The position numbers and the translations under genes were made by a program. The notes beneath the pieces are model-generated. The model did no database searches and was not told the DNA's origin. It saw nothing but the letters and a program-made list of their open reading frames with translations. From NCBI GenBank assembly GCA_028699085.1, contig JAQVVF010000001.1, positions 28,333 to 92,332 of the forward strand: a stretch of DNA of 64,000 nucleotides, read 5' to 3'. This DNA is from Patescibacteria group bacterium. Its GTDB lineage: Bacteria > Patescibacteriota > JABMPQ01 > JAQVVF01. This document shows positions 244-64,000 of this stretch, piece after piece (position 1 is the stretch's first letter; the number at the start of each line of letters is the position of its first letter).

Positions 244-993
244 ATGAATTCAAGACAAAAAACAATTTTAAATGCAATTATTAAAGAATATATCCAGACA
301 GCTGAACCAGTTGGCTCAAAAGTTTTAGTTGATAAATACAATTTCGATTTATCATCTGCGACTTTAAGAAATGAGATGAAAGAATTAGAAGACATGGGAT
401 TTTTAACTCAACCTCACACTTCAGCTGGCAGAACTCCAACTGATAAAGGGTACCGGTTTTTTGTTGATAGTTTGATGGGTGAAAAAGAGTTAACAGTCAA
501 CGAGCAAAGACAATTACAGACTGAATTAATTAAGACAAAAGCAAAATATAATCGATTAGCAAAATCAACTACAAGATTGTTATCTAGACTATCTGATAAT
601 TTAGTAATTTCTGGCGTTTTAGATTCACAAGATATTTGGGAAGCTGGCATGCCAAAATTATTAAAACAGCCAGAATTCAAAAATCCTGATGAGGTTTATG
701 ATGTTGCCGAAGCGCTTGATTTATTAGATGAAAATGTTGATACTCTTTGTGACAAAGCCAAGTCAAAATGCATTAAAGTCTATATTGGTAAAGAAAATCC
801 ACTTAACATAAAAAACTGTTCAATGGTTGTTTCCCAAGTAAAATATCCATCAGGCGAAAAAGGATTTATCGCTATCATCGGTCCAAAAAGAATGCATTAT
901 GATAAGAATATTTCTTTGTTGGAACATATAACTAAATTTCTTGGTTCTGGACTAATGGTTTCAATATTATTTATAGTTTTTAGTAATGTCTAA
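244..993 (+). CDS. hrcA: Heat-inducible transcription repressor HrcA
   Basis: N-terminal winged-helix region (ILNAIIKEYIQTAEPVGSKVL) is typical of HrcA. The gene is followed by grpE-dnaK and preceded by CIRCE. Confidence 0.85.
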   Translation: MNSRQKTILNAIIKEYIQTAEPVGSKVLVDKYNFDLSSATLRNEMKELEDMGFLTQPHTSAGRTPTDKGYRFFVDSLMGEKELTVNEQRQLQTELIKTKAKYNRLAKSTTRLLSRLSDNLVISGVLDSQDIWEAGMPKLLKQPEFKNPDEVYDVAEALDLLDENVDTLCDKAKSKCIKVYIGKENPLNIKNCSMVVSQVKYPSGEKGFIAIIGPKRMHYDKNISLLEHITKFLGSGLMVSILFIVFSNV

Positions 994-1098
994 ATGAAAA
1001 AATTAAAAATCAAAATGCAAAATGACAATTAAAAATAAAAGATTTACATTTTGCACTGTCATTTTACATTTTGAGATTTACATTTTAAATTTATAACA

Positions 1099-4151: not shown

Positions 4152-4175
4152 GGGGGCGGAAATAATTTCGCCCCC
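4152..4175 (+). terminator. GC-rich stem-loop GGGGGCG-N10-CGCCCCC after dnaK (weak U-tract)
   Basis: 7-bp G/C stem read directly. Only two T residues follow, so this may be a partial terminator or attenuator ahead of dnaJ. Confidence 0.45.
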
Positions 4176-4185
4176 TTGAATAATC

Positions 4186-4320
4186 AATTACCAAGAAACA
4201 AGAAACAAGCAATAGTCAATAACCAAATTAAAATAATCAAACTCGTCGAATCGTTTGTCGGTTTGGTTATTGATAAATTGAAATTTGTTTGTATCTTGTT
4301 TCTTGTATCTTGGTTATTTT
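4186..4320 (+). repeat. Copy 1 of a roughly 130-nt structured intergenic repeat (outer arms ACAAGAAACAAG / CTTGTTTCTTG; inner AATAACCAAA / TTTGGTTATT; apex CAAACTCGTCGAATCGTTTG)
   Basis: Aligns with copies at 40660-40797 and 49984-50113. All three lie between co-directional plus-strand genes. Confidence 0.75.
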
Positions 4321-4331
4321 AAGAATCAAAA

Positions 4332-5471
4332 ATGGCAAAAGATTACTACGAAATATTAGGTGTTACTAAAGATTCATCAGAAGATGAAATTAAAAAAGCT
4401 TTTTATAAAAAAGCTCATCAATATCATCCTGATAAAAAAACAGGTAACGCTGAAAAATTTAAGGAAGCTAATGAGGCTTACCAAGTTTTGTCTGATAAAG
4501 AAAAAAAATCACAATATGATCAATTCGGTCAAACTTTCGAGCAGGCTCAATCAGGAGGTGGATCTTATGGGGGGAATCCTTTTAGCGGTTTTAATGGTCA
4601 AGGTTTCAATGTCAATATGGAAGATTTTGATTTAGGTGATATTTTTTCATCTTTTTTCGGTGGCAAAAGAAAATCAAAGGGCACTAGAAATGCAGTGGCT
4701 GGCAATGATATTAGCATTGATCTAAATATTAATTTTGAAGATCCAGCCAAAGCTTTAGAAAAAGAAATTGAATTGTATAAAAAAATAAAATGTGATCGCT
4801 GTACAGGACAAGGTAATGAACCAGGCACGAAAATTAATACTTGTAAGAATTGTCAAGGCAGTGGTCAAGTAACGCAAGCTCGTCAAACAATGTTTGGCGT
4901 ATTTTCGCAAGCTACAATTTGTCCAGAATGCCAAGGCAATGGACAGATATTCGAACAAAATTGTACAAAATGCAAAGGCAAAGGCCAAGTTCAAGGATAT
5001 GAAAAAGTATCAATCAATATTCCGGCCGGAATTAGAGACGGCCAAACGCTAGAATTGAGCAACAAAGGAGAAGAAGGACAAAAAGGCGGACCAGCTGGCA
5101 ATTTATATATTTCAATTCATGTTGCTTCTCACAAATATTTCAAGAGAAAAGAGGATAATTTAATTTACGAACTGCCTCTTAGCTTTACTCAAGCAGCATT
5201 AGGCGATGAAATTGAAATTCCTACTCTTAACAGCAATATTGCTTTAAAAATTCCAGCTGGAGTTCAGACTGGAAAAATTTTTGTTATCGATGGCAAAGGC
5301 TTTCCACATTTGAATCAGCAAGGAGCCGGAGATTTATTAATTCCTGTTCGAGTTATTACTCCAACAAAATTGAATAAAAAAGAAAAAGAATTGTTGTTAG
5401 AATTAGCAAAGAATAATGGTCAAACAGTTAAAGTCAAAAAGAAAAACTTTTTTCATGATTTATTTGAGTAA
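4332..5471 (+). CDS. dnaJ: Chaperone DnaJ
   Basis: J-domain with HPD motif (YHPDKK), G/F-rich linker, four CxxCxGxG zinc-finger repeats. Confidence 0.9.
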
Positions 5472-6253: not shown

Positions 6254-6332
6254 TGTCATTCTGAACTGCAGTGAAGAATCCCATAATTATTTATTTAATA
6301 ATGGGATCCTTTGCTTCGCTCAGGATGACAGA
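6254..6332 (+). repeat. GC-richer imperfect hairpin element (arms TGTCATTCTGAACTGCAGTGAAGAATCCCAT and ATGGGATCCTTTGCTTCGCTCAGGATGACA) 40 nt upstream of tRNA-Lys
   Basis: Read directly. A second copy of the same roughly 30-nt motif pair lies at 42726-42801, abutting lysS. Confidence 0.7.
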
Positions 6333-6372
6333 AAATTTATCATTTATAATTTGTAATTTTTAATTAGATATT

Positions 6373-10710: not shown

Positions 10711-12186
10711 ATGGCAAATAATGATATATCCGTTTTCGCAACGACAAACTATCGTAACAAAAAAGTAGTTTTTGGTATCAAGCGCGATGATCGTCGCAGA
10801 CACATGTATGTGATTGGAAAAACTGGCATGGGCAAAACAAACCTTATGGAAAATATGGCGATTTCTGATATTCGTGCTGGTAATGGTATTTGTGTTGTCG
10901 ATCCGCATGGCGAGTTTGCTGAGAGAATGTTAGATTTTGTGCCTGCTAATCGTATTAACGATGTTATCTATTTTAATCCAGGTGATATGGATTATCCAAT
11001 TGCTTTTAATGTTATGGAGAATATCAATCCTGCATATAAACATTTAATATCATCAGGACTTATCGGCGTTTTTAAAAAAATCTGGGCCGATTCCTGGGGT
11101 CCTCGTCTTGAATATGTTTTAAGAAATTCAATTTTAGCCTTACTCGATTATCCAGGCTCAACAATGCTTGGCATTATGAGAATGCTTGTAGATAAAGAAT
11201 ACCGAAAAAAAGTTATTGATAAGATACAAGATCCAGTAGTCAAGCAATTCTGGGTTGAAGAATATTCAAAATATCCAGATAAATTTCAAACAGAAGCAAT
11301 CGCACCTATCCAAAATAAAGTCGGACAATTTTTATCAATTTCCTTAATCAGAAACATTGTTGGCCAGTCAAAGTCTACAATTGATATGCGTGAAGCAATG
11401 GACACAAAGAAAATTCTAATCCTCAATCTAGCAAAAGGAAGAATTGGTGAAGATGCTTCAGCATTATTTGGCGCTGTCATTATAACCAAGATTCAATTAG
11501 CCGCCATGTCTCGTGTTGATATTCCGGAAGAAGAGAGAGCTGATTTTTATCTTTATGTCGATGAGTTCCAGAATTTTGCAACTGAATCATTTGCTGATAT
11601 TTTATCCGAAGCTAGAAAATATCACTTGAATTTAATTATCGGCCATCAATATATCGGGCAATTAGAAACAGGAGGATCAACAAAAGTACGTGATGCTGTT
11701 TTTGGCAATGTCGGTACAATTGCTTGTTTTAGAGTTGGTGCAGCTGATGCTGAATTTTTAGTCAGCGAATTTGAACCAATTTTTACTGAAATTGATTTAG
11801 TTAACCTAACAAAATATAATATCTATCTGAAATTAATGATTGATGGTGTTGCTTCTCAAGCATTCAGTGCTACCACCTTACCGCCATCTACAAGAAAAGA
11901 GGGCAATGCTGAAAAAATTATTAAAGTTTCGCGTGAACGATATGCGACTGACCGCAAGATTGTTGAAGAAAGAATTTCTAAATGGTCAGAAAATATTGTC
12001 AGAGATGAAGCAACAATGCCACAAGCAAGATTTTTTCCAAAGAAAAAAGAAGCTCAGCAAAGTCATCAACCTTTCAAAAAAGCATTTGGTGAAATCTTCA
12101 AACAAAAATTACAAAAAGAAGAAACCAAGCAAGAAGAAAAACCAAGAGAGACATTAAAGCCAGGACAAGTAATAAAAATGGATTAG
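10711..12186 (+). CDS. P-loop NTPase of the FtsK/HerA/TraD-VirD4 (coupling-protein-like) superfamily, with a K/E-rich C-terminal tail
   Basis: Walker A (VIGKTGMGKT) preceded by DDRRRHMYVIG, Walker B (LYVDEFQNF), and motifs VVDPHGE and GHQY. Paralog of the C-terminal half of the 61742 ORF. Confidence 0.65.
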   Translation: MANNDISVFATTNYRNKKVVFGIKRDDRRRHMYVIGKTGMGKTNLMENMAISDIRAGNGICVVDPHGEFAERMLDFVPANRINDVIYFNPGDMDYPIAFNVMENINPAYKHLISSGLIGVFKKIWADSWGPRLEYVLRNSILALLDYPGSTMLGIMRMLVDKEYRKKVIDKIQDPVVKQFWVEEYSKYPDKFQTEAIAPIQNKVGQFLSISLIRNIVGQSKSTIDMREAMDTKKILILNLAKGRIGEDASALFGAVIITKIQLAAMSRVDIPEEERADFYLYVDEFQNFATESFADILSEARKYHLNLIIGHQYIGQLETGGSTKVRDAVFGNVGTIACFRVGAADAEFLVSEFEPIFTEIDLVNLTKYNIYLKLMIDGVASQAFSATTLPPSTRKEGNAEKIIKVSRERYATDRKIVEERISKWSENIVRDEATMPQARFFPKKKEAQQSHQPFKKAFGEIFKQKLQKEETKQEEKPRETLKPGQVIKMD

Positions 12187-13640: not shown

Positions 13641-13758
13641 TAAATATCAAAGTTCTAATGTCAAATCAAATTTAAATATCAAATGACGAATTTCGAAAAC
13701 GACGCCATTTGTCATTGAGCATTTAGCATTTGCAATTTGAATTTTGAAATTAAACTAT

Positions 13759-15947: not shown

Positions 15948-16149
15948 CTTTTTCCTCCTGACTTTAGAGCTGGTCAATATAACATATCTTTAACAAAAGT
16001 CAAGACCAGAAAATATCTTGAAACATAGTTGTTTATAATAAAAATTAAAATGTGGTATAATAACATATAACAAGTTAACAATTAACAGTTAACAAATTTT
16101 AAGTTCGTATGTGTTAATTGTTAAATGTTAATAGTTAATTGTTTACGAT

Positions 16150-17415: not shown

Positions 17416-17536
17416 CTAATAACCAAATTACAATAATCAGAGAATAACCAATAATCAATAAACAATTCTAAAATCTCTGATCATTTAGCTATTGGATATT
17501 GGTTATTCTCTGGTTATTGGTTATTGATTATTAAAA
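17416..17536. repeat. Imperfect palindrome built from AATAACCAA / TTGGTTATT and CAGAGAATAACCAATA / TATTGGTTATTCTCTG words
   Basis: Read directly. The same word family occurs at 54670-54777 and in the 130-nt repeat copies. Confidence 0.6.
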
Positions 17537-26612: not shown

Positions 26613-26649
26613 TTTTTACTTTTTCCTTTTGACTTTTTAATTTTTAAAC

Positions 26650-27660
26650 ATGTTCATAAAGAAAATCGGCATTGATCTTGGTACGGCAAATTCAGTAGTC
26701 TATTTACCAAAGAAAGGCATTGTTTTAAATGATCCTTCTGTTGTCGCTGTCTCATTAGATGATAATTCGATTCTAGCAGTAGGAAATGAAGCAAAACAAA
26801 TGCTTGGCCGAACGCCAGACACAATTGTTGCTTCTCGTCCAATGAAAGATGGCGTAATCGCTGATTATCGTGTTACTGAAGCAATGCTTCGTTATTTTAT
26901 TAACAAATCAATCGGTAATGTTAGATTATTCCGTCCTGAAGTCATGGTTTCTGTTCCAGCTGGCATTACTTCTACTGAAAGAAGAGCTGTCGTTGATGCT
27001 ACTATGCAAGCTGGTGCTAAAGCTGCTTACATTATAAAAGAGCCAATTGCTGCAGCTATTGGCGCTGGAATTCCAATTGCTCAATCATGCGGCAACATGG
27101 TCATCGATATCGGTGGCGGAACAACAGAAGTTGCTGTTATTTCTTTGGGAGGTATCGTTGCTGTTAATTCAGTTCGTGTTGCTGGAAATAAACTAGACGC
27201 TGCTATTGCCAATTATATTCGTAAAAAACATGGTTTAGTAATTGGTGATCGAACAGCTGAAGAAATTAAAATAAAAATTGGCACGTGTTTGCCAGTTGAA
27301 AAAGAAGACACAATTGAGATTCGCGGTCGCGATATGGTTCGCGGTCTGCCAAAAAATATTATTGTTACTTCAAACGAAACAACTGAAGCAATTCAAGACG
27401 AGCTTCGGGAAATAGTTCAAGCCGTTAAAGCTGTTTTACAAGAAACTCCTCCAGAATTATCAGCTGATGTTATGGACAAAGGCATGATTTTAACTGGTGG
27501 TGGGGGATTATTAAGAAATTTAGATCAGCTTTTAGCCAAGTCAACTGGTGTTCCATGTTATGTTGCTGAAGATCCATTGCTTTGTGTTGTAAAAGGTACT
27601 GCAGCAGCGCTTGAAAATTTGGACTCATACAAGAGAAGTGTATTAGCATCTAAAAGGTAA
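26650..27660 (+). CDS. mreB: MreB-like actin homolog (paralog 1)
   Basis: IGIDLGTANSVVY and DIGGGTTEVAVIS motifs are present. A second, more canonical copy is at 36197. Confidence 0.8.
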   Translation: MFIKKIGIDLGTANSVVYLPKKGIVLNDPSVVAVSLDDNSILAVGNEAKQMLGRTPDTIVASRPMKDGVIADYRVTEAMLRYFINKSIGNVRLFRPEVMVSVPAGITSTERRAVVDATMQAGAKAAYIIKEPIAAAIGAGIPIAQSCGNMVIDIGGGTTEVAVISLGGIVAVNSVRVAGNKLDAAIANYIRKKHGLVIGDRTAEEIKIKIGTCLPVEKEDTIEIRGRDMVRGLPKNIIVTSNETTEAIQDELREIVQAVKAVLQETPPELSADVMDKGMILTGGGGLLRNLDQLLAKSTGVPCYVAEDPLLCVVKGTAAALENLDSYKRSVLASKR

Positions 27661-27760
27661 TTATCAATTAGCAATTTCCAATTTTCAATCAATTATCAAT
27701 TTTCAATGATTATCAGCTCATTGTGAATTGTAAAATTGAAAATTTATTGTAAATTGATCA

Positions 27761-28885
27761 TTGAAAATTATGGTTATAGGCATTGACGCCTCGCGCGCCA
27801 ACAAACAAGTTAAAACAGGTACTGAATGGTATTCCTATAACCTTATTTTAGAATTAGCAAAAATCGATCATGAAAATGAATATTGGCTGTATTCTCCAGA
27901 CAAGTTAAAAGGAAAATTATCGCAACTGCCAGAAAATTTCAAAGAAAAAGTTTTGTCTTGGCCTCCAAAAAAACTTTGGACAATGGCAAGACTGTCTTTT
28001 GAAATGAAAAAAAATCCACCTGATTTATTATTTGTCCCTGCTCACATAATACCTTTAGCTTCACCAAAAAAAACTATTACTACAATTTGTGATATTGGTT
28101 TTGTCAGCAACAAGGAATTATATTCTCAAAAAGAAATTAAATATCATAATTTTGGATTAAAACAGGCTATCAAAAAAGCAACTTTAATTTTGACTATCTC
28201 CAAATTTACTAAAGAAGAAATGGTTAAATTCTGCAAGATTGATCCAAATAGAATCAAAGTTATTTATTTAGGCTTCAACCAGAATGATTATCGCAAAATA
28301 GAAGATCAAAAAAAGATTAAGCAGATTAAAAATAAATACAAATTACCAGATAATTATTTATTTTATACAGGTCGCTTAAATTTAAAAAAGAATATCCCGA
28401 ATTTAATCAAAGCATTCAAACAAGTCATTGATGACAATAAATTTAAAGATTATAAACTAGTCATGGCTGGTGTGCCTGAAAATGGTTATGAAGTAATTAA
28501 AGAAGAAATAAAGCTGCAAGGAATTCGTGACAAAATTATTGAGCTTGGCTGGACAAAAGAAGAAGATTTGCCCTATTTAATGAATGGCGCAAAACTTTTT
28601 GTTTTTCCATCAAATTATGAAGGTTTTGGAATCCCGCCACTAGAAGCCATGGCTTGTGGTACTCCCGTTGTTTCTTCAAACGCGGCCTCTCTTCCAGAAG
28701 TCTGTGGCAATGCTGCTTTATTATTTGATCCAAAAAATGTCGATCAAATGGCAGAAAAAATAAAATTAGGCTTAAGCGATGAAAATTTAAGGCATGATTT
28801 AATTCAAAAAGGTTTTTTGCAAATCAGAAAATTCTCATGGGAAAAATGCGCGAAAGAAACTCTAGATGCTTTAGAAGAAGAATAA
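27761..28885 (+). CDS. Family GT4-type glycosyltransferase (GT-B)
   Basis: C-terminal EGFGIPPLEAMACGTPVV is the GT4 signature. Confidence 0.75.
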   Translation: MKIMVIGIDASRANKQVKTGTEWYSYNLILELAKIDHENEYWLYSPDKLKGKLSQLPENFKEKVLSWPPKKLWTMARLSFEMKKNPPDLLFVPAHIIPLASPKKTITTICDIGFVSNKELYSQKEIKYHNFGLKQAIKKATLILTISKFTKEEMVKFCKIDPNRIKVIYLGFNQNDYRKIEDQKKIKQIKNKYKLPDNYLFYTGRLNLKKNIPNLIKAFKQVIDDNKFKDYKLVMAGVPENGYEVIKEEIKLQGIRDKIIELGWTKEEDLPYLMNGAKLFVFPSNYEGFGIPPLEAMACGTPVVSSNAASLPEVCGNAALLFDPKNVDQMAEKIKLGLSDENLRHDLIQKGFLQIRKFSWEKCAKETLDALEEE

Positions 28886-33545: not shown

Positions 33546-34745
33546 ATGATAACTCTAATAACTTTTATAATAATTCTAGGCCTATTAATCTTTGTCCATG
33601 AGCTGGGCCATTTTGTTGCTGCAAAAAAATCAGGAATTAAGGTTGATGAATTTGGTTTTGGCTATCCGCCAAGAATCATCGGCACTTATAAAGATCCAAA
33701 AACTAAAAAATTTGTTTTAGTCTTGCCAAAGAGAGGCAAAGGAAAAAAACAACTTGCAGCTGTCGCTGGTCAAGAATCAGAAGAGAATTTTCCAGCCACA
33801 GTTTATTCATTGAATTGGTTGCCGCTTGGCGGTTTTTGCAAAATGAAAGGCGAGAATGGCGATGGCAAATCAGATCCTGATAGTTTTTCAGCCAAAAAAG
33901 CTTGGCAAAGAATTATTGTATTAATTGCTGGAGTTGCCATGAACTTTGTTTTAGCTACGCTTGTTTTAATGATTGGCTTCAAAGTTGGTCTGCCTACAGC
34001 AATAGATTCTCAAAACAAAAGCTATGCCAAAGATCAAAAAGTTCAAATCATGTCGATTGCCACAGATTCGCCAGCCGAAAAAGTTGGTTTAAAAATTGGC
34101 GATCAGATTGTCTCAATTAACGATAAAAAGCTAGAAAATGTTACCCAAGTTCAAAAAGTAATTGATAAAAACAAAGGCAAAGAAATTGATTTAAAAATTA
34201 AAAGATATAATGAGAATTTAGATGTTAAAGTTGAGCCCAGAAAAAATCCGCCCGAAGATCAAGGAGCAATGGGCGTTGGTTTAGTCGAAACAGGCATTGT
34301 CTCCTATCCATTTTTTACCTCGATTTGGAAGGGAATTACTGCTACTTTCAATTTGACAATTGCCATCCTTGTTGGTTTTTATGATATCTTTAAGAATCTT
34401 TTTGCTGGCAACAAGATCGGTGCGGATGTTGCCGGACCAATTGGCATTGCTGTTATGACAGGTCAGGTTTCTAAAATGGGATTTAGCTATTTATTACAGT
34501 TCGTTGCTTTATTATCTATAAATCTTGCAATAATTAATGCCTTGCCAATTCCAGCAATCGATGGAGGCAGAATACTATTCATTATCATTGAAAAAATCAG
34601 ACGCAAGCCGATTTCTATGAGGATCGAAAATTATATTCATACTATAGGCTTTGCCATATTAATTTTACTGATGGTCGTCGTGACTTTTCGAGATGTATTC
34701 AAATTCAAAGACATATTTATCAATTTATGGAACAAAATAATATAA
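33546..34745 (+). CDS. rseP: RIP metalloprotease RseP (site-2 protease) with a PDZ domain
   Basis: HELGH zinc motif in TM1, a PDZ segment, and a C-terminal LDGG motif (AIDGGR). Confidence 0.8.
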   Translation: MITLITFIIILGLLIFVHELGHFVAAKKSGIKVDEFGFGYPPRIIGTYKDPKTKKFVLVLPKRGKGKKQLAAVAGQESEENFPATVYSLNWLPLGGFCKMKGENGDGKSDPDSFSAKKAWQRIIVLIAGVAMNFVLATLVLMIGFKVGLPTAIDSQNKSYAKDQKVQIMSIATDSPAEKVGLKIGDQIVSINDKKLENVTQVQKVIDKNKGKEIDLKIKRYNENLDVKVEPRKNPPEDQGAMGVGLVETGIVSYPFFTSIWKGITATFNLTIAILVGFYDIFKNLFAGNKIGADVAGPIGIAVMTGQVSKMGFSYLLQFVALLSINLAIINALPIPAIDGGRILFIIIEKIRRKPISMRIENYIHTIGFAILILLMVVVTFRDVFKFKDIFINLWNKII

Positions 34746-34756
34746 AAAAGAAAAAA

Positions 34757-34838
34757 TCAAAATGGAAAATGACAATGAAAAATAAAAAATTAATTTTAAA
34801 TTTTAAATTGTTATTTTGATTTTTGATTTTTACATTTT
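34757..34838. repeat. Imperfect palindrome of the CAAAATG-N-AAATGACAAT / ATTGTCATTT-CATTTTG word family
   Basis: Related copies at 1011-1073 and 36153-36172. Confidence 0.5.
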
Positions 34839-34849
34839 AATTTAACTTT

Positions 34850-36139: not shown

Positions 36140-36196
36140 TTTTTAATTTTGAATTGTCATTTCGCATTTTGATTTTTTACTTTTTATTTTTTTAAC

Positions 36197-37261
36197 ATGT
36201 CTATCGTAAATAATGTTTTAGGTCGCTTTTCCAAAGATATCGGAATCGATTTAGGCACAGCTAATACTTTGGTTTATGTCAAAGACAAAGGCATAGTTAT
36301 TAACGAACCTTCTGTTGTTGCAGTTAATAAAAGAACAAACCAAGTTCTAGCAATTGGTAATGAAGCAAAAAAAATGGTTGGAAAGACCCCAGCCCACATT
36401 GTTGCAACTAGACCTCTAGTTGACGGAGTTGTCTCTGATTTTGAAGTTACTGAACAAATGCTTCGTTATTTTATTGAAAAAGTTCATCAAGAAGGCTTTA
36501 CAATCTTCCCTCGTCCAAGAGTTGTGATTGGCATTCCATCTGGCGTTACTGAAGTTGAAAGAAGAGCAGTAGAAGATGCTTCAATCAGCGCTGGAGCAAG
36601 GCAAGCATTTTTGATTGAAGAGCCAATGGCAGCTGCAATTGGCGCGCGTCTTCCAGTTCAAGATGCTTCTGGAAATATGATTGTTGATATCGGTGGTGGC
36701 ACGACAGAAGTTGCCGTCATCTCTTTAGGCGGTCTAGTTACCGCAAAATCATTAAGAATAGCAGGCGATGAATTAAACCAAAACATTATTGAATATGCTC
36801 GCTCAGAATTCAATTTACTTTTAGGTGAAAGAACAGCCGAAGATATAAAAATTGCAATTGGTTCAGCTGCAAAAATTGACGAACCGCTTGAAACAACGAT
36901 GCGTGGACGTGATTTAGTGACTGGCTTGCCGAAGGAGGTTGTCATTAATGACGAACAAGTTCGCGAAGCCTTGATGCGTTCAGTCAGAATAATTGTTAAT
37001 AGCATCAAAACAACAGTTGAAGAAACGCCTCCAGAGTTAGTTGCTGATATCATGAAAAGAGGAATCGTCTTGGCCGGTGGCGGATCACTGCTTCGTGGCT
37101 TAGATAAGGTATTATCAGAGCAGACTCAAATGCCTGTTCATATTGCTGATGATCCATTGACTTGCGTTGTTCGTGGTTGCGGTATTGTTTTGGAAGACAT
37201 CGACGCCTTGAAAGATGTTTTGATTCCAACTCAATATGAAAAGCCTCCAAGAATATTTTAA
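36197..37261 (+). CDS. mreB: Rod-shape determining protein MreB (canonical copy, followed by mreC and mreD)
   Basis: IGIDLGTANTLVYV and DIGGGTTEVAVIS motifs. Operon context mreBCD-mrdA. Confidence 0.9.
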   Translation: MSIVNNVLGRFSKDIGIDLGTANTLVYVKDKGIVINEPSVVAVNKRTNQVLAIGNEAKKMVGKTPAHIVATRPLVDGVVSDFEVTEQMLRYFIEKVHQEGFTIFPRPRVVIGIPSGVTEVERRAVEDASISAGARQAFLIEEPMAAAIGARLPVQDASGNMIVDIGGGTTEVAVISLGGLVTAKSLRIAGDELNQNIIEYARSEFNLLLGERTAEDIKIAIGSAAKIDEPLETTMRGRDLVTGLPKEVVINDEQVREALMRSVRIIVNSIKTTVEETPPELVADIMKRGIVLAGGGSLLRGLDKVLSEQTQMPVHIADDPLTCVVRGCGIVLEDIDALKDVLIPTQYEKPPRIF

Positions 37262-40653: not shown

Positions 40654-40659
40654 CGTAGT

Positions 40660-40797
40660 AACAAGATACAAGAAACAAGATACAAACAATATTCAATACT
40701 CAAAAATCAATAACCAAATCGTCATCCGTCGAGTTTGGTAATTGATTATTCTAATTTGAAATTTGTTTGTTTCTTGTTTCTTGTTTCTTGGTTATTT
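40660..40797 (+). repeat. Copy 2 of the roughly 130-nt structured intergenic repeat
   Basis: Aligns with 4186-4320 and 49984-50113. Shared stretches are AATAACCAAAT, a CGTC-containing apex, TTTGGT, TTGAAATTTGTTTGT and CTTGTTTCTTG. Confidence 0.75.
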
Positions 40798-42646: not shown

Positions 42647-42725
42647 ATGGCTAAAATTTCAAAATTTTATAGCCAAAAGCATCAAAACTTGATAAAATAA
42701 TTATATTAGAAAATCTAAATAATTT

Positions 42726-42801
42726 ATCATTCTGAGCCAAAGCTTCGAATCCCATTGGTTTTTGGAAAGCATGGGATCCCTCACTTCGTTCGGGATGACA
42801 G
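42726..42801 (+). repeat. Second copy of the GC-richer hairpin element (arms ATCATTCTGAGCCAAAGCTTCGAATCCCAT and ATGGGATCCCTCACTTCGTTCGGGATGACAG), ending 9 nt before the lysS ATG
   Basis: Read directly. It is homologous to 6254-6332, upstream of tRNA-Lys. Confidence 0.7.
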
Positions 42802-47473: not shown

Positions 47474-47569
47474 TTTTGACTACAGATTGACAATTCTGTG
47501 GTTTTCTTATAACTTATAGCTGTTAGTGGTTGTTTTGAATTTTTACTTTTAACTTTTTAATTTTTAAAC

Positions 47570-48835
47570 ATGCTTGATATTAATTTAATCAGAAAAGACA
47601 AAAAATTAGTCATGAAAGCACTTCATGACCGTAATATGAAGTTTGATATTGATAAACTTCTTGATCTTGATTTTGAAAAAAGAAAACTACAAACGAAAGT
47701 TGATGAACTTCGTGCTAAACAAAATACAGCCTCAGATGAAATTGCCAAACTTAACGGACCAGAAAAACAACAAGCGATTCTTGATATCAAAGGCACATCA
47801 GAAAGATTGAAAGATTTAGAATCAAAATGTAGCAAGCTTGATGAAGAGCTATCGAAATTAATGCTTGAACTTCCAAATATTCCGCGACCTGATGTCAAAG
47901 TTGGTAAGAATGAATCAGAAAATGAAATTATAAAAAAAGTTGGCGAGCCAACAAAATTTGATTTTGAGCCAAAAGATCATTTAGCTTTAGGCGAAAAATT
48001 AGATTTAATTGATACAAAAAGAGCTGGCAAGGTTTCTGGTTCTCGTTTCAATTACTTAAAAAGAGAATTAGTTTTATTGGAATTTGCTCTAGCAAGATTT
48101 GTTATTGATGAATTAACAAAAGAAGGATTTATTCCAGTAATTCCGCCTCAAATTGTTTCTGAAAAAGCAATGCAAGCAATGGGCTACCTTGCTCATGGCG
48201 GAGAAGAAGAAACTTATCATTTTGCCAAAGACAAACAATACTTTGTTGGCACTTCAGAACAATCAGTGATTCCAATGCACATGAACGAAGTTTTGAAAGA
48301 GTCAGACTTGCCAAAACGTTACATTGCTTTCTCAACTTGTTTTCGCCGAGAAGCAGGATCTTATGGTAAGGATACATACGGAATTTTACGTCAGCACCAA
48401 TTTGATAAATTAGAGATGCTGGTGCTTGCAAAACCAGAGGATTCTGAGAAAGAACAAGAATTTCTATTGAATATAGAGGAAAGATTAGTTAAAGCTTTAA
48501 ATTTGCCTTATCAAGTTGTTAAAATGTGCACTGGAGATCTAGGCGATCCTGCAGCTCGCAAATATGACATTGAAACTTGGATTCCATCACAAAAAAAATA
48601 TCGCGAAACGCATTCTTGTTCGACTTGTACTGATTTTCAAGCTCGTCGTTTAAATATTAAATACCGAGATACTAAAAAAAATAAAAATGAATTAGTCCAC
48701 ACATTAAATGCTACAGGATTTGCTATCGGTAGAATTTTGATTGCTATCATGGAAAATAATCAACAAAAAGATGGCTCCATAAAAATTCCAGAGGTTTTGT
48801 GGGGTTATTCTGGAATTAAAGAAATCAAGCGATGA
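47570..48835 (+). CDS. serS: Seryl-tRNA synthetase
   Basis: N-terminal coiled-coil arm plus class II core (FRREAGSYGKDTYGILRQHQFDKLE). Confidence 0.9.
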   Translation: MLDINLIRKDKKLVMKALHDRNMKFDIDKLLDLDFEKRKLQTKVDELRAKQNTASDEIAKLNGPEKQQAILDIKGTSERLKDLESKCSKLDEELSKLMLELPNIPRPDVKVGKNESENEIIKKVGEPTKFDFEPKDHLALGEKLDLIDTKRAGKVSGSRFNYLKRELVLLEFALARFVIDELTKEGFIPVIPPQIVSEKAMQAMGYLAHGGEEETYHFAKDKQYFVGTSEQSVIPMHMNEVLKESDLPKRYIAFSTCFRREAGSYGKDTYGILRQHQFDKLEMLVLAKPEDSEKEQEFLLNIEERLVKALNLPYQVVKMCTGDLGDPAARKYDIETWIPSQKKYRETHSCSTCTDFQARRLNIKYRDTKKNKNELVHTLNATGFAIGRILIAIMENNQQKDGSIKIPEVLWGYSGIKEIKR

Positions 48836-49983
48836 TTAATCACAAAACTTGGGTTGAAATAAGCAAGCAAGCTTTAATTTTTAATCTAAAACAATTTAGA
48901 AAAATAATTGGCCAAGATAAAAAATTGGCTGCAATTATAAAATCCAATGCTTATGGCCATGGACTGCAAGATACAGCCCAAATTTTAGCTAAGTCAGAAG
49001 CAGATTGGTTTGGTGTTGATTCAATTGATGAAGCAATCGCAATAAAACAAGAAAACAATAAAACAATAAAACAAATTATTATTTTAGGCTATACTGTTTA
49101 CAATCATTTATCTGAAGTTATTAAAAATGAGTTTAGGCAAATAGTTTATAATTCAGAAACTATAAAAAAACTTGGCGAGCTTTCTTCAAAGTTAAAAAAG
49201 AGAACTTATCTTCATATCAAACTAGAAACAGGTACATCAAGGCAAGGAGTTTTGGAAAAAGATTTATCAAAAATTGTTAAATTAATTAAGAAATATCCTT
49301 ATCTAGTTTTAGAAGGCGCATCAACTCATTTTGCGAATATCGAAGATACAACTGATCATTCTTATGCTGAACAACAATTAAAAAATTTTCAGCGTCTAAT
49401 AAATTTAGCAGAAAAAGAATACGGCCAAAAAATAAAAATAAAACATACTGCTTGTTCAGCTGCAACAATATTATTTCCAGAAACTCATTTTGATTTAGTA
49501 AGACTTGGAATTAGCATGTATGGATTATGGTCATCTAGCGAAACAAAAGTTTCGGCTTCCCACAAAAAGATTAATTTAAGTTTAAAACCTGTATTATCCT
49601 GGAAAACAATAGTTGCCCAAGTTAAAAAGCTGAAATCTGGGACACCGATTAGTTATGGACTTACAGAAACCTTGCATCATGATTCAACAATCGCAATATT
49701 ACCAATCGGATACAATGACGGTTTTGATCGTAAATTATCAAACATCGGCAATGTTTTAATAAAAGGTAAACGTTGTAAAATATTAGGTCGTATTTGCATG
49801 AATATGTGTGTTGTTGATGTTAGCCATATCAAAAACCTCAAACCAGAAGATGAAGTAGTTTTAATCGGCAAGCAAGGTAAAGAACAAATAACAGCTGATG
49901 AAATTGCTAAGAAGATAAATACGATAAATTACGAAATTGTAACAAGGATTAATCCACTAATAAAAAGAGTAATAGTTAAATAA
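48832..49983 (+). CDS. alr: Alanine racemase
   Basis: PLP site AIIKSNAYGHG is present. 383 aa. Confidence 0.85.
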   Translation: MINHKTWVEISKQALIFNLKQFRKIIGQDKKLAAIIKSNAYGHGLQDTAQILAKSEADWFGVDSIDEAIAIKQENNKTIKQIIILGYTVYNHLSEVIKNEFRQIVYNSETIKKLGELSSKLKKRTYLHIKLETGTSRQGVLEKDLSKIVKLIKKYPYLVLEGASTHFANIEDTTDHSYAEQQLKNFQRLINLAEKEYGQKIKIKHTACSAATILFPETHFDLVRLGISMYGLWSSSETKVSASHKKINLSLKPVLSWKTIVAQVKKLKSGTPISYGLTETLHHDSTIAILPIGYNDGFDRKLSNIGNVLIKGKRCKILGRICMNMCVVDVSHIKNLKPEDEVVLIGKQGKEQITADEIAKKINTINYEIVTRINPLIKRVIVK

Positions 49984-50113
49984 ATAACCAAGAAACAAGA
50001 TACAAACAATTCTCAAATTACAAATTAAAATAATCAAACTCGTCGTCGTGTTTGGAAATTAGTAATTTGGATTTGAAATTTGTTTGTCAATTGTATCTTG
50101 TTTCTTGATTATT
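49984..50113 (+). repeat. Copy 3 of the roughly 130-nt structured intergenic repeat
   Basis: Aligns with 4186-4320 and 40660-40797. Confidence 0.75.
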
Positions 50114-54665: not shown

Positions 54666-54669
54666 CATA

Positions 54670-54777
54670 AATAACCAATTATCAATAACCAAAAAATAAT
54701 CAATATATAATAACCAATAATCAAATTTTAGTTATTAGATTTTTGGTTATTCGTTGATTATTAGTTATTGATTATTT
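54670..54777. repeat. Imperfect palindrome of AATAACCAA / TTGGTTATT and AATCAATAA / TTATTGATT words between ybaB and recR
   Basis: Read directly. Same word family as 17416-17536. Confidence 0.55.
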
Positions 54778-55069: not shown

Positions 55070-55216
55070 AATTTTAAATTAATATTTAATTTTGAATTTA
55101 GAATTTTAAATCAATTTTGAAATCAGAATTTAGAATTTCGAAACAGTTAGCCGCATTTAAAAATTAAATTATTCAAAATTCATTCTAAATTTAAAATTCG
55201 AAATTCAAAATTATAG

Positions 55217-61741: not shown

Positions 61742-64000
61742 TGCAAAATCAAATCGAAAACATAACTAGTTCTATAAACGAGTCGTATCTTGGCATTATT
61801 TTTATTACTGCAGTTTTTCTTGTCGGAATATTATTAATTATCAGCTTATTAAAAATAATGCGAAAAAGGAATATTATTCCACATTCTTTGAATATGGTTA
61901 CTTTGCTAATTTCTGTCCCAAGAGAAGTCAAGCAAGTTACAGAAGAAGCAAAAAAAGAAGAAAAAGAAATGATTTCAATCGCAGAAACAATGTTTGCTAA
62001 TATCTATTCTATTGAAACTGCGTCGAATGGTTTGATGTCTGGACTCTATGGAAAAGAATATGTTTCTTTTGAAATAGTCGCCATTAACGGTGAGATTCGT
62101 TTTTATGTCTCTACTCCGAAAAGATTGCAGGATTATATTGAAAAGACAATTCATTCTCAATATCCGAAAGCCTATATTTCCGAAGAAGGCGAGTACAATG
62201 TGTTTAAACCCAAAAGTCAAGTTAGGGGTGTTATGCTTGTAACTGAAAAACAAAACTATTTGCCATTTAAAACATATCAAACAATAGAAACCGATCCTCT
62301 GAATGCTATTACAAATGCATTAAGCAAATTAGATGAAAAAACAGAAGGGGCAGCAATTCAATATTTAATTAGACCAGCTGGAAAAAAATGGATGAAAAAA
62401 GGTCCTCATATTGCTAGAGAAATGCAACGCGGAAAAACTTATGAATATGCATCAGCAAGCCTTTTAGGCAAACTTTTTAAAAGAAAAGAAGAAGGCAAAT
62501 CTAGTGTCCTAGAGCAAGCAGTGTTGCCTGGAGCTTCAGAACAACAAATGTCTGGAGGAGCGCCAATGCTTTCTCCGATGATTCAAGAACAAATTAAAGC
62601 TTTGGAAGTAAAATCTTCTAAGCTTGGTTTTGAAACAAATATTAGAATTATTTCCTCATCAGATTTAGATACAAAAGCAGAAGCAAATTTAAGAAATATT
62701 GTCGGCGCTTTTACAGAATATACGGATCCAAACCTGAACAAATTTGTTGAAAAGAAATTGAATGTTCAGAAACTAATTCAGGCTTTCATTTTTCGCACTT
62801 TTGACGAAAAAAGAAAAAGCATTTTGAACACTGAAGAATTAGCATCTGTATTCCATTTGCCGACAAAATTTGCCGAAACACCAAATATTCATTGGCTATT
62901 AGCAAGAGATGCTCCGGCTCCACATAATGTTCCTAAAGAAGGATTATTATTAGGTAAAAACACATTTCGAGGTATCGAAACACCTATTCGGATTAAAGAT
63001 GATGATCGAAGAAGACACATGTATATTATTGGCCAAACTGGTGTTGGTAAATCAAACTTTTTACAAAACATGATTGTTCAAGATATTAAAGATGGCAAAG
63101 GTCTTTGCGTTGTTGATCCACATGGAGATTTAGTTGAAAGTGTCTTGCCATTTATTCCAAAAGAAAGAGTTGATGATATTATTCTTTTTGAACCTTTTGA
63201 TGTTAATCGACCGATGGGCTTAAATATGCTTGAATTTAAAACTGAAGACCAAAAAGATTTTGCTGTCCAGGAAATGATGCAAATTTTTTACAAACTATTT
63301 CCGCCAGAAATGATTGGCCCAATGTTCGAGCATCAAATGAGAAATGTCATGCTGACATTAATGGCTGACAAAGAAAATCCTGGAACTTTAGCCGAAATTC
63401 CAAGAATGTTCACAGATAATGAATATGCCAAAGAATGGATTGAAAAATTGAAAGATCCTGTTGTTAAAGCTTTTTGGGAGAAAGAAATGGCAAAGACTTC
63501 AGATTTTCACAAATCAGAAATGCTTGGTTATCTAATTTCTAAAGTTGGTCGTTTTGTTGAAAATGAAATGATGAGAAATATAATTGGCCAAAGCCATTCT
63601 TCTTTTGATCTTAGAAAAATCATGGATGAGGGTAAAGTCTTGCTTGTAAATTTATCAAAAGGAAAAATTGGTGAAACAAATTCTTCTTTATTAGGCTTAA
63701 TTATTGTTTCTAAAATTCAGATGGCAGCTTATTCACGTGCTGATATTCCAGAATCAGAAAGAAAAGACTTTTATTTATACGTTGATGAGTTCCAAAATTT
63801 TGCTACCGACAGTTTTGCTTCAATATTATCCGAAGCCAGAAAATACAGACTTAATTTAATCGTCGCTCACCAATATGTTAAACAGCTTGAAGAGAAGATC
63901 AGAGATGCTGTCTTTGGAAATGTCGGTACTTTTACTGCATTTCGTGTTGGTGTAGAGGATGCTGAGATTGTCGCCAAAGAGCTTGAACCTGTTTTTACAG
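61742..64000 (+). CDS. Fused single-TM membrane domain plus TraD/VirD4-like P-loop ATPase (partial, runs off the window end)
   Basis: Hand-translated open frame from the ATG at 61742 with no stop to 64000. The N-terminal 430 aa is paralogous to the 9406 protein. The C-terminal part is paralogous to the 10711 ATPase (DDRRRHMYIIGQTGVGKS, VVDPHGD, LYVDEFQNF, AHQY). Confidence 0.6.

What the first reader, a model, noticed from the sequence alone, without database searches (positions are those of the whole stretch)
4186..4320. Roughly 130-nt structured intergenic repeat present three times (4186-4320, 40660-40797, 49984-50113)
All three copies are on the same strand between co-directional genes (dnaK-dnaJ, mrdA-folD, alr-murI). 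They share outer inverted arms (ACAAGAAACAAG...CTTGTTTCTTG), inner arms (AATAACCAAA...TTTGGTTATT) and an apical stem-loop. The apical stem CAAAC/GTTTG is preserved while the loop varies around a conserved TCGTC. Three copies in 64 kb implies many copies genome-wide. This could be a REP/MITE-like element, a family of intercistronic processing or attenuation sites, or an sRNA family. The spurious upstream start of folD (40767) lies inside one copy.
Basis: seen in the sequence. Interest (0 to 1): 0.65.

Follow-up and report, generated by a model that had tools for sequence, protein, structure and literature searches.

The report
Heptad-periodic palindromic intergenic repeat family
The three look-alike spacers of about 135 bases are real copies of a widespread and apparently undescribed family of non-coding DNA elements; their two arms are mirror-image runs of 7-base units (CAA+4 bases / 4 bases+TTG), and they behave like small dispersed (probably mobile) repeats, not like an RNA whose fold is under selection.

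Summary
Three copies lie at 4179-4318, 40657-40796 and 49983-50113. They fill the dnaK-dnaJ, PBP2-folD and alr-murI spacers, and both strands fold far better than shuffles (z -7.6 to -13).

They are not a private family. A 23-nt arm pattern hit at least 118 stretches in MAGs labelled Omnitrophota, Patescibacteria, Chloroflexota, Ratteibacteria and others, and most sit in 110-150-nt hairpins with the same ordered consensus. Each arm is a run of degenerate heptads. CAA (5' arm) and TTG (3' arm) recur every 7 nt, and the four bases between them vary.

Tests for an RNA structure fail:
- There is no covariation. The alifold covariation term is +0.3, partner shuffles pair equally well, and chimeric arms fold as well as real ones.
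- There is no sense/antisense difference and no orientation bias.
- Elements occur in co-directional, divergent and convergent spacers.
- There is no Rfam match.

Near-identical copies sit at different loci of one genome. One orthologous spacer holds this element in one genome and a different heptad palindrome in its relative.

Best reading: a MITE/foldback-like dispersed repeat whose heptads are protein-recognition units. No transposase or target duplication was found, and the function is unknown. I found no description of it.

The parts
4179..4318 (.). Copy 1 (dnaK-dnaJ spacer). 5' arm of CAA-N4 heptads at 4179-4242, centre TCGTCGAATCGTTTGTCG at 4243-4260, 3' arm of N4-TTG heptads at 4261-4318. 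It ends 13 nt before the dnaJ ATG at 4332.
   Evidence: 89 bits, E 3e-25; z -8.95 / -7.62
40657..40796 (.). Copy 2 (PBP2/mrdA-folD spacer). 5' arm at 40657-40718, centre TCGTCATCCGTCGAG at 40719-40733, 3' arm at 40734-40796. It starts 3 nt after the mrdA stop and ends 6 nt before the folD ATG at 40803. The spurious TTG start at 40767 lies inside it.
   Evidence: 98 bits, E 6e-28; z -13.1 / -9.9
49983..50113 (.). Copy 3 (alr-murI spacer). 5' arm at 49983-50039, centre TCGTCGTCGT at 50040-50049, 3' arm at 50050-50113. It overlaps the last base of the alr stop codon and ends 12 nt before the murI ATG at 50126.
   Evidence: 85 bits, E 7e-24; z -8.2 / -8.6
17418..17533 (.). Weaker family member built of AATAACC/AATAATC ... 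GGTTATT/GATTATT heptads, between the ftsA-like gene and the next ORF. It ends 4 nt before the ATG at 17538.
   Evidence: D2, D16; I5; 35 bits, E 2e-8
54667..54777 (.). Weaker family member upstream of a minus-strand RecR-like gene. The likely start is ATG 54668; the TTG at 54692 inside the element is probably spurious.
   Evidence: I11; 26 bits, E 9e-6
27665..27769 (.). CAA/TTG heptad hairpin with a different unit order (CAATTTN / NAAATTG), between mreB and a GT4 glycosyltransferase. It abuts the ATG at 27770.
   Evidence: I13; lag-7 autocorrelation 0.60
984..1093 (.). Another 7-nt-periodic hairpin (CAAAATG / CATTTTG units). A sister copy lies at 34734-34849.
   Evidence: D8, D12, D17; I1, I4
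34734..34849 (.). Sister of 984-1093 (CAAAATG / CATTTTG units). It ends at the ATG at 34850.
   Evidence: (I1)
4152..4176 (+). GC-rich stem-loop (GGGGGCGGAAATAATTTCGCCCCC) that reads as the dnaK terminator by eye, although the terminator scan did not call it. It lies just upstream of copy 1 and is not part of the element; it suggests that copy 1 is not needed as a terminator.

Best explanation
The three copies belong to a dispersed, non-coding, pseudo-palindromic DNA repeat family that resembles MITEs or foldback elements. Each element is two opposed arrays of about 7-9 degenerate heptads, (CAA-N4)n ... centre ... (N4-TTG)n. The order is conserved from outside to inside: AATAACC, AAGAWAC, AAGAWAC, AAACAA, AT-rich units, AATAACCAAAC, loop.

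**Shown:**
- The elements sit in any kind of intergenic spacer.
- They occur at unrelated loci within one genome.
- They are gained or replaced at an orthologous spacer.
- They are found in several phyla.

**Inferred:**
- They spread as DNA. The conserved CAA/TTG triplets at a 7-bp register are the contact points of a protein (a transposition or recombination protein, or another DNA-binding protein) that binds each arm in opposite orientation.
- The hairpin potential is a by-product of the mirror-image arrays.
- When an element lands inside an operon, as in all three window cases, it is transcribed passively. It can then fold into a long imperfect stem that brings the upstream stop and the downstream start together, which may be why it is tolerated in tiny spacers of a genome without Shine-Dalgarno sites.
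For: **Family and grammar.**
- 111 of 133 pattern matches lie in hairpins (median 133 nt) with the same termini.
- The 5' arm, which was not used for selection, is conserved.
- CAA and TTG are spaced 7 nt apart in 275/390 and 265/375 successive occurrences, against about 1-5 in shuffles.

**No selection on pairing.**
- RNAalifold gives a covariation term of +0.3 and 0 compensatory pairs.
- 75.5% of cells are paired against 76.9% after shuffling partners among sequences; 487 of 500 shuffles are at least as high.
- Chimeric arms fold and align as well as real ones.
- Rare 7-mers are not mirrored in their own other arm (0.8% against 0.44%).

**Blind to context and orientation.**
- 53 co-directional, 10 divergent and 7 convergent spacers.
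- Sense and antisense MFE are -39.6 and -40.0, with G.U counts of 172 and 189.
- The TCGTC loop is sense in four elements (three in the window, one in L060) and antisense in a fifth, also in L060.

**Dispersal and turnover.**
- L045 and L104, two contigs of one assembly, carry copies differing at only a few aligned positions in different flanks.
- L015 has two copies 3.5 kb apart, one with an apex deletion.
- Copy 1 is 86% identical to an element between other genes in L060.
- An orthologous spacer holds this element in L045 but a different heptad palindrome in L003.
- Distribution is patchy: 1 element in 668 kb of DnaJ-related loci.

**Breadth across phyla.** Profile-confirmed elements by record title: Omnitrophota 26, Patescibacteria 14, Planctomycetota-labelled 10, Chloroflexota 4, Ratteibacteria 3. 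Two half-length profile hits on a 1.2-Mb Chloroflexia contig may be an interrupted copy, which would argue against a binning artefact.
Against: - No target-site duplication is visible. The A/T-rich ends would hide a 2-bp one.
- No transposase or any other recurrent gene lies near 118 loci, and no arms were found flanking an ORF.
- The window copies are old (74-80% identical) yet keep the CAA/TTG register. In alignments, triplet positions differ 5-fold less than N4 positions (3.5% against 18%, with a register-alignment caveat).
- Retained orthologous copies are at least as conserved as the flanking coding DNA (92% against 82-90%, and 98% against 88-90%).
- These last two points suggest constraint on copies in place, which a purely selfish element does not predict.
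Confidence: 0.5

Rival explanations
1. Host-functional DNA arrays. The heptads are operator- or centromere-like binding sites for an abundant sequence-specific DNA-binding protein that covers one 7-bp unit per dimer, as the ribbon-helix-helix protein omega (ParB of pSM19035) does. The arrays would serve nucleoid organisation or global repression, and the elements would be maintained by selection in place.
For: - CAA/TTG triplets are at least 90% conserved per column, while the N4 bases vary and the arms are not kept complementary.
- Old, diverged copies still obey the grammar.
- Retained orthologous copies are at least as conserved as the flanking coding DNA.
- Placement is blind to context.
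- Precedent: 7-10 contiguous 7-bp repeats WATCACW, with one dimer per repeat (PMC9499535).
Against: - No candidate protein was found, and none is recurrent nearby.
- Distribution among related genomes is patchy, and an orthologous spacer shows replacement by another heptad type. This is hard to reconcile with a conserved host system shared by at least 5 phyla.
- No excess of promoter-like sites overlaps the arrays.
Confidence: 0.2
2. RNA-level element. Once transcribed inside operons, the long imperfect stem would act as an RNase III processing or stability site, or would juxtapose stop and start codons to keep translation coupled. It could also be opened by a protein that reads CAA-N4 repeats on one arm, as HutP reads NAG-N4 repeats on a terminator hairpin. 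Because the grammar is symmetric, it would work in either orientation.
For: - Both strands fold very stably.
- In the window all six CAA/TTG elements end 0-13 nt from the downstream ATG. Four of the five with a clearly called upstream gene start -1 to +4 nt from its stop (copy 1 starts 38 nt downstream, after the dnaK stem-loop).
- The genome lacks Shine-Dalgarno sites (8 of 64 genes by a crude test).
- The symmetric grammar explains why there is no orientation or G.U asymmetry.
- HutP is a precedent for a triplet-plus-4 register (PMC2425495).
Against: - There is no covariation at all, although variation is ample.
- 17 of 70 elements lie in divergent or convergent spacers.
- Copy 1 follows a GC-rich stem-loop that looks like the dnaK terminator, so it may not be co-transcribed with dnaK (the scan did not call it).
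- No Rfam family matches.
Confidence: 0.17
3. Local origin without mobility. Inverted heptad arrays would arise again and again in AT-rich spacers by replication slippage of 7-nt units (the commonest unit length of long simple repeats in prokaryotes). Similarity between copies would then be convergence on a mutationally favoured sequence.
For: - Several unrelated heptad 'flavours' coexist in the window and in L003.
- One-armed direct arrays of CTTGTTT exist in viral and other contigs.
- Heptanucleotide repeats are reported as the most abundant long simple repeats (cited in PMC4679880).
Against: - The family has an ordered, non-repetitive consensus about 60 nt long per arm, shared across phyla with GC 0.27-0.59.
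- Very similar copies lie at different loci of one genome.
- Slippage gives identical units, not a fixed order of different units.
Confidence: 0.08
4. A trans-acting sRNA family or a transcription attenuator/terminator.
For: Stable hairpins lie between co-directional genes.
Against: - No orientation bias and no covariation.
- No terminator-like site (GC-rich stem followed by a T-run) was scored in the scans of the three regions on the element strand.
- The genome has conventional-looking GC-rich stem-loops after several genes.
- Elements also lie between divergent genes.
Confidence: 0.03

Closest known systems
MITEs and foldback-type non-autonomous elements (for example the Correia/NEMIS, RUP and Nezha bacterial MITEs; Drosophila FB elements, whose long inverted arms are made of short tandem repeats). 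Comparison from my own knowledge.
   Same: Small, non-coding, with long inverted arms. Many dispersed copies in intergenic DNA. Copies at unrelated loci in one genome. Gain or replacement at an orthologous spacer. Tolerated inside operons.
   Different: No target-site duplication and no autonomous partner was found. The arms are arrays of degenerate 7-bp units with only 3 of 7 positions fixed. Copies within a genome are no more alike than copies from different phyla.
Intergenic heptanucleotide direct repeats: cyanobacterial STRR repeats (CCCCAGT, TTGGTCA, CAACAGT; from my own knowledge) and the TAACTGA repeats of Beggiatoaceae, cyanobacteria and Bacteroidetes (PMC4679880).
   Same: 7-nt unit. 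Intergenic, often just upstream of start codons in spacers that lack ribosome-binding sites. Scattered distribution across phyla with no known transfer mechanism. Function unknown. STRR2 (TTG-GTCA) and STRR3 (CAA-CAGT) even fit the TTG-N4 / CAA-N4 format.
   Different: Those are direct tandem repeats of one identical unit, with an orientation bias towards the downstream gene. Here there are two opposed arrays of different units in a fixed order, and no orientation bias.
REP/BIME and REPIN elements with RAYT transposases
   Same: Abundant intergenic palindromic repeats that form hairpins and occur between co-transcribed genes.
   Different: REPs are 20-40-nt GC-rich imperfect palindromes without 7-nt periodicity. 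No RAYT-like gene recurred near the loci.
Heptad operator/centromere arrays bound by the RHH protein omega (ParB of pSM19035), PMC9499535
   Same: Contiguous 7-bp units, at least 4-10 per array, in direct and inverted orientation, with a short conserved core per unit.
   Different: Different core (WATCACW). Those arrays are plasmid-borne and overlap promoters. No cognate protein is known here. Membership was not tested.
HutP-bound NAG-N4 repeats on the hut terminator hairpin, PMC2425495
   Same: A triplet plus a 4-nt spacer, repeated at least 3 times at two sites of one hairpin.
   Different: HutP sites carry the same triplet on both sides of the RNA, whereas here the RNA would carry CAA on one arm and UUG on the other. 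The hut system is a single locus, not a dispersed family.

Membership tests
MITE / foldback-type non-autonomous mobile element | Small non-coding element with terminal inverted repeats | tested here: met
   131-140 nt. The termini AATAACCAAGAWACAAG... / ...CTTGTWTCTTGGTTATT are conserved in 44 elements with AATAA/TTATT ends.
MITE / foldback-type non-autonomous mobile element | Multiple copies at unrelated loci in one genome | tested here: met
   Three strong and two weak copies in the window. L045 and L104, from the same assembly, have very similar copies in different flanks. L015 has two copies and L060 has two.
MITE / foldback-type non-autonomous mobile element | Presence/absence polymorphism at orthologous sites | tested here: inconclusive
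   One case: between the same flanking genes, L045 has the element and L003 has a different heptad palindrome. This shows turnover but is not a clean empty site.
MITE / foldback-type non-autonomous mobile element | Target-site duplication | tested here: inconclusive
   No consistent direct repeat in the 20-nt flanks of 44 elements. The A/T-rich ends make a 2-bp duplication unresolvable.
MITE / foldback-type non-autonomous mobile element | Autonomous partner with the same ends that encodes a transposase | tested here: not met
   No protein family recurs in more than 8 of 118 loci. No 5' and 3' arms flank an ORF within 4 kb. Whole genomes were not searched.
Structured cis-regulatory RNA or sRNA family | Covariation that supports a conserved secondary structure | tested here: not met
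   Covariation term +0.3 and 0 compensatory pairs. Observed covariation score 0.064 against 0.073 in shuffles; 451 of 500 shuffles are at least as high. Chimeras fold as well as real elements.
Structured cis-regulatory RNA or sRNA family | Fixed orientation relative to flanking genes | tested here: not met
   The loop motif is antisense in L060:1668-1794.
Structured cis-regulatory RNA or sRNA family | Match to a described Rfam family | tested here: not met
   Only a tRNA reaches the gathering threshold. Sub-threshold hits are chance hairpins, for example MIR8562 at 30.6 bits against a gathering score of 211.
REP / REPIN | 20-40-nt GC-rich palindromic unit; linked RAYT gene | tested here: not met
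   The units are AT-rich heptads, and no recurrent neighbouring gene was found. RAYT presence elsewhere in the genome is not testable.
Heptanucleotide direct repeats (STRR, TAACTGA) | Tandem direct repeats of one identical 7-nt unit | tested here: not met
   The period is 7, but the units differ and follow a fixed order, and the two arrays are inverted.
Intrinsic terminator | GC-rich stem followed by a U-tract, downstream of genes | tested here: not met
   No terminator-like site falls inside any of the three elements; the only sites scored (three, on the minus strand) lie downstream of copy 2. 10 of 70 elements lie between divergent genes.
Omega-type RHH heptad arrays | At least 4 contiguous 7-bp units, and a cognate RHH protein that binds them | not testable with these tools
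   Contiguous heptads are present. Binding by any protein cannot be tested here.

The most novel reading that the evidence does not exclude
The CAA-N4 / N4-TTG grammar may be the recognition code of an undescribed protein system shared by ultra-small and other uncultivated bacteria (Omnitrophota, Patescibacteria, Ratteibacteria, some Chloroflexota). This could be a new kind of transposition machinery that uses arrays of 7-bp sites as its ends. It could instead be a host DNA- or RNA-binding protein that reads a triplet every 7 nt and uses these elements as genome-wide landing pads, for example for nucleoid organisation or for translation re-initiation in genomes without Shine-Dalgarno sites.
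Probability: 0.25. Interest if true: 0.8.

Novelty: new variant of a known kind. Interest (0 to 1): 0.6.

Why it matters
- **A shared non-coding element.** A 130-nt non-coding element with a strict 7-nt grammar is shared, at about 70-90% identity, by genomes labelled as at least five phyla with GC from 0.27 to 0.59. That implies either horizontal spread of a non-autonomous element among uncultivated lineages or a conserved reader protein. Either would give a new handle on the biology of Omnitrophota and Patescibacteria, where almost nothing is known about non-coding DNA.
- **Effect on annotation.** The elements fill whole spacers next to start codons. They create spurious upstream TTG starts (folD, the GT4 gene, the recR-like gene) and can break short-read assemblies.
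- **A caution about hairpins.** A very stable predicted hairpin (z about -10) can carry no evidence of selection on pairing.

Tried and rejected
- **Rfam:** searches at the gathering and E-value thresholds found nothing.
- **Promoter or terminator reading:** consensus matches are not above shuffles, and none of the terminator-like sites scored lies inside an element.
- **Sense-strand RNA signature:** G.U counts and MFE do not differ between sense and antisense. I later realised that the symmetric grammar makes this test weak on its own.
- **Closely related genomes through DnaJ in metagenome contigs:** the best hit was only 52% identical, so there are no orthologous spacers for the window itself.
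- **Exact-protein look-up:** this gave only an 8-kb Logan contig from SRR22315503, so the genome-wide copy number of the source organism could not be counted.
- **Linked transposase:** all-against-all BLASTP of ORFs from 118 loci found none.
- **Split arms flanking cargo ORFs:** none found.
- **Plasmid and phage collections (blastn):** no match. The viral-contig pattern scan found only one-armed direct arrays.
- **Literature (seven searches, including sequence strings):** these returned only papers on heptamer direct repeats and the omega and HutP precedents. The library lacks most subscription journals, so a description elsewhere is not excluded.
- **Taxonomic placement of the window:** only suggestive. 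The best tblastn hits are to Patescibacteria loci at 53-58% identity.

Full report
**Observation.** The three copies are real. Reading the sequence and folding it gives hairpins at 4179-4318, 40657-40796 and 49983-50113. They align at 78% mean column identity. The arm word CAAGAAACAAG (at most 1 mismatch) occurs 13 times in the window against 3.0 +/- 1.5 in shuffles. Each copy folds far better than 200 dinucleotide shuffles on both strands (z -8.95/-7.62, -13.10/-9.92 and -8.22/-8.60). Pfam confirms the flanking genes as Hsp70/DnaJ, a PBP2-type transpeptidase/FolD and alanine racemase/an Asp-Glu racemase. It also shows that the TTG start at 40767 inside copy 2 is spurious, because FolD starts at ATG 40803.

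**Anatomy.** Each arm is a run of degenerate 7-nt units. The 5' arm reads AATAACC AAGAAAC AAGATAC AAACAAT..., and the 3' arm reads ...ATTTGTTT GTATCTT GTTTCTT GGTTATT. Lag-7 autocorrelation is 0.52-0.63 in the three copies, against 0.28 in dnaK. The window holds more such structures:
- Two weaker members of the same family, 17418-17533 and 54667-54777 (profile E 2e-8 and 9e-6).
- A CAA/TTG hairpin with another unit order, 27665-27769.
- Hairpins built of other heptads at 984-1093, 34734-34849, 2059-2130, 13650-13743, 16059-16140 and 55070-55213.

The genome has almost no Shine-Dalgarno sequences (8 of 64 genes by a crude test). All six CAA/TTG elements end 0-13 nt before the downstream ATG. 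Four of them start within -1 to +4 nt of the upstream stop; copy 1 starts 38 nt downstream of it, after the dnaK stem-loop, and the upstream neighbour of 54667-54777 is only a doubtful small ORF.

- 111 of 133 matches lie in hairpins with a median length of 133 nt.
- The 5' arm, which played no part in the selection, shows the consensus AATAACCAAGAWACAAGAWACAAACAA.
- CAA in 5' arms and TTG in 3' arms are spaced exactly 7 nt apart in 275/390 and 265/375 successive occurrences. A secondary spacing of 4 comes from CAAACAA. Shuffles give 1/84 and 5/69.
- A profile built from 24 elements finds 251 strand-hits in these loci.
- By record title, elements of at least 40 bits number: Omnitrophota 26, Patescibacteria 14, Planctomycetota-labelled 10, Chloroflexota 4, Ratteibacteria 3, Pseudomonadota-labelled 2, Saganbacteria 1, unclassified 18.
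- Labels of binned genomes can be wrong. However, full-length copies lie on a 209-kb Omnitrophota contig and on Chloroflexota-labelled contigs with GC 0.56-0.58. Two half-length hits on a 1.2-Mb Chloroflexia contig may be one copy interrupted by an insert.
- The distribution is patchy. 80 metagenome loci encoding DnaJ relatives (668 kb, at most 52% identity) hold a single element. That element also sits just upstream of dnaJ, in L146.

**Is the fold selected?** No test shows it.
- RNAalifold on 24 elements gives -0.77 kcal/mol with a covariation term of +0.3. It predicts 11 pairs, all of them the nearly invariant consensus bases (mostly the CAA:TTG triplets), and none has a compensatory change.
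- On a full hairpin structure taken from copy 2, 75.5% of cells pair. After dealing the 3' partners out among the sequences the figure is 76.9% (487 of 500 shuffles at least as high). The covariation score is 0.064 against 0.073. Sliding the partners drops pairing to about 36-49%, so the consensus itself is palindromic in register.
- Chimeras made of the 5' arm of one element and the 3' arm of another fold as well as real elements (-38.8 against -37.3 kcal/mol; inner parts -15.7 against -15.9). They also align equally well.
- Rare 7-mers of a 5' arm have their complement in their own 3' arm in 0.8% of cases, against 0.44% in foreign arms.

The two arms are therefore independent draws from one grammar. 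The triplets at a 7-nt register are what is conserved, not the pairs.

**Context and orientation.**
- Of 70 elements with genes called on both sides, 53 lie between co-directional genes, 10 between divergent genes and 7 between convergent genes. I judge this close to what any intergenic feature would show.
- In the 53 co-directional cases, sense and antisense strands fold equally (-39.6 against -40.0 kcal/mol, p = 0.79) with equal G.U counts (172 against 189).
- The only asymmetric feature of the window copies is the TCGTC-rich loop, which is on the sense strand in all three. It recurs in a Saccharibacteria-labelled MAG (L060), once sense and once antisense to the genes.
- Promoter-like matches in all three regions are not above shuffles, and no terminator-like site lies within an element.
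- Rfam has no matching family at either threshold.

**Dispersal and turnover.**
- The window copies are 74-80% identical to each other and 69-72% identical on average to copies from other genomes.
- Copy 1 is closest (86%) to L060:5704-5835, which lies between an M23-peptidase-like gene and tsaD.
- Two contigs of one assembly (L045, L104) carry very similar copies in unrelated flanks.
- L015 has two copies 3.5 kb apart, one lacking 43 nt at the apex.
- In the related pair L003/L045 (about 82% DNA identity), one orthologous spacer keeps the element (92% identical). Another spacer between the same two genes holds the CAA/TTG element in L045 but a different heptad palindrome (CACGGAT/ATCCGTG units) in L003.
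- No protein family recurs near the elements (the largest cluster covers 8 of 118 loci). No arms flank an ORF. No target duplication is visible.
- Viral contigs carry only one-armed direct arrays. Plasmid and phage collections have no match.

**Interpretation.** The evidence fits a dispersed repeat of the MITE/foldback type whose arms are arrays of 7-bp recognition units. The hairpin would be a consequence of the mirror-image arrays, not the selected feature. I put this at about 0.5.

The main doubt is that old, diverged copies still keep the CAA/TTG register. Triplet positions differ 3.5% against 18% for the spacer positions, although aligning periodic sequences inflates this contrast. Retained orthologous copies are also at least as conserved as the neighbouring coding DNA. 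Both points hint at constraint in place, which favours two rivals:
- Binding arrays for a host DNA-binding protein. The precedent is the 7-bp WATCACW heptads bound one dimer each by omega/ParB of pSM19035 (PMC9499535).
- An RNA-level role that works in either orientation because the grammar is symmetric. The precedent for a triplet-plus-4 register is HutP on the hut terminator (PMC2425495).

In the window, the tight fit between stop and start codons in a genome without Shine-Dalgarno sites would suit a role in keeping translation coupled. It could equally reflect insertion into very short spacers.

**Comparison with known elements and novelty.** The nearest described phenomena are intergenic heptanucleotide direct repeats: STRR in cyanobacteria (my own knowledge) and TAACTGA in Beggiatoaceae, cyanobacteria and Bacteroidetes. 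The latter are also close to start codons, also scattered across phyla and also unexplained (PMC4679880). Those are direct repeats of one unit with an orientation bias. Here there are two opposed arrays of different units in a fixed order, with no bias. Seven literature searches, including searches for the sequence words themselves, found no description of this family, though the library is incomplete. I rate it a new variant of a known kind (dispersed intergenic palindromic repeat), with a real chance that a new reader protein or transposition system lies behind it.

**Limits.** The source genome could not be retrieved; only an 8-kb Logan contig from SRR22315503 carries the same DnaJ. Genome-wide copy number is therefore an extrapolation. 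Gene calls in the fetched loci are crude ORF calls. Taxon labels are those of the records. The window organism is only tentatively a member of the Patescibacteria.

Noticed in passing
window 6255-6345 and 42725-42800: A second, GC-richer hairpin repeat (GTCATTCTGAAC...GAAGAATCCCAT...ATGGGATCC...GCTTCGCTCAGGATGACAG). The motif GTCATYCYGARC / GYTCRGRATGAC also occurs in 8 pattern loci and 5 DnaJ loci. In some loci it lies inside or next to heptad elements (L077, L081, L099, L111).
   Followed up: partly
window 26613-26652, 36160-36199, 47533-47572: T-rich leaders with a period of about 6-7 nt (ACTTTTTAATTTTTAAACATG) abut start codons and have no partner arm. They are 75-90% identical to each other.
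   Followed up: no
window, all gene starts: The genome has essentially no Shine-Dalgarno motifs (8 of 64 by a crude test, several of them on doubtful ORFs). The upstream regions are A/T runs.
   Followed up: partly
window 27761, 54692, 40767, 13744: First-start ORF calls begin at TTG codons inside heptad hairpins. In-frame ATGs just past the hairpins (27770, 54668, 40803, 13759) are the likelier starts. This would be a systematic annotation artefact caused by the TTG-rich arms.
   Followed up: partly
L003 5880-6010: A different heptad palindrome (CACGGAT / ATCCGTG units) occupies the spacer that holds a CAA/TTG element in the orthologous region of L045. Similar CAGTGAT/GTTCACT-type units lie inside elements of L007 and L027.
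   Followed up: partly
L146 1638-1766: This is the only family member among the 80 DnaJ-related metagenome loci. It too lies directly upstream of dnaJ (ATG at 1777), although the upstream gene is not dnaK.
   Followed up: partly
L028, L043, L062, L076, L085, L099, L116 (element interiors): Some elements carry 60-150 nt of unrelated, often GC-rich hairpin sequence between the two heptad arms. This could be nested insertions or cargo.
   Followed up: no
window 10786-11786 vs 63001-63998; 26665-26907 vs 36239-36481: Two pairs of paralogous coding regions, 71-75% identical at the DNA level. One pair is the two MreB-like genes. The other is an ATPase gene with a 58% identical relative in a Patescibacteria SAG.
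   Followed up: no
L023, L050, L086, L095 and viral loci L200-L212: Long one-armed direct arrays of CTTGTTT (up to about 9 units) without a partner arm occur in Bacteroidales, Anaerolineaceae, Patescibacteria and viral contigs. Their relation to the two-armed family is unknown.
   Followed up: partly
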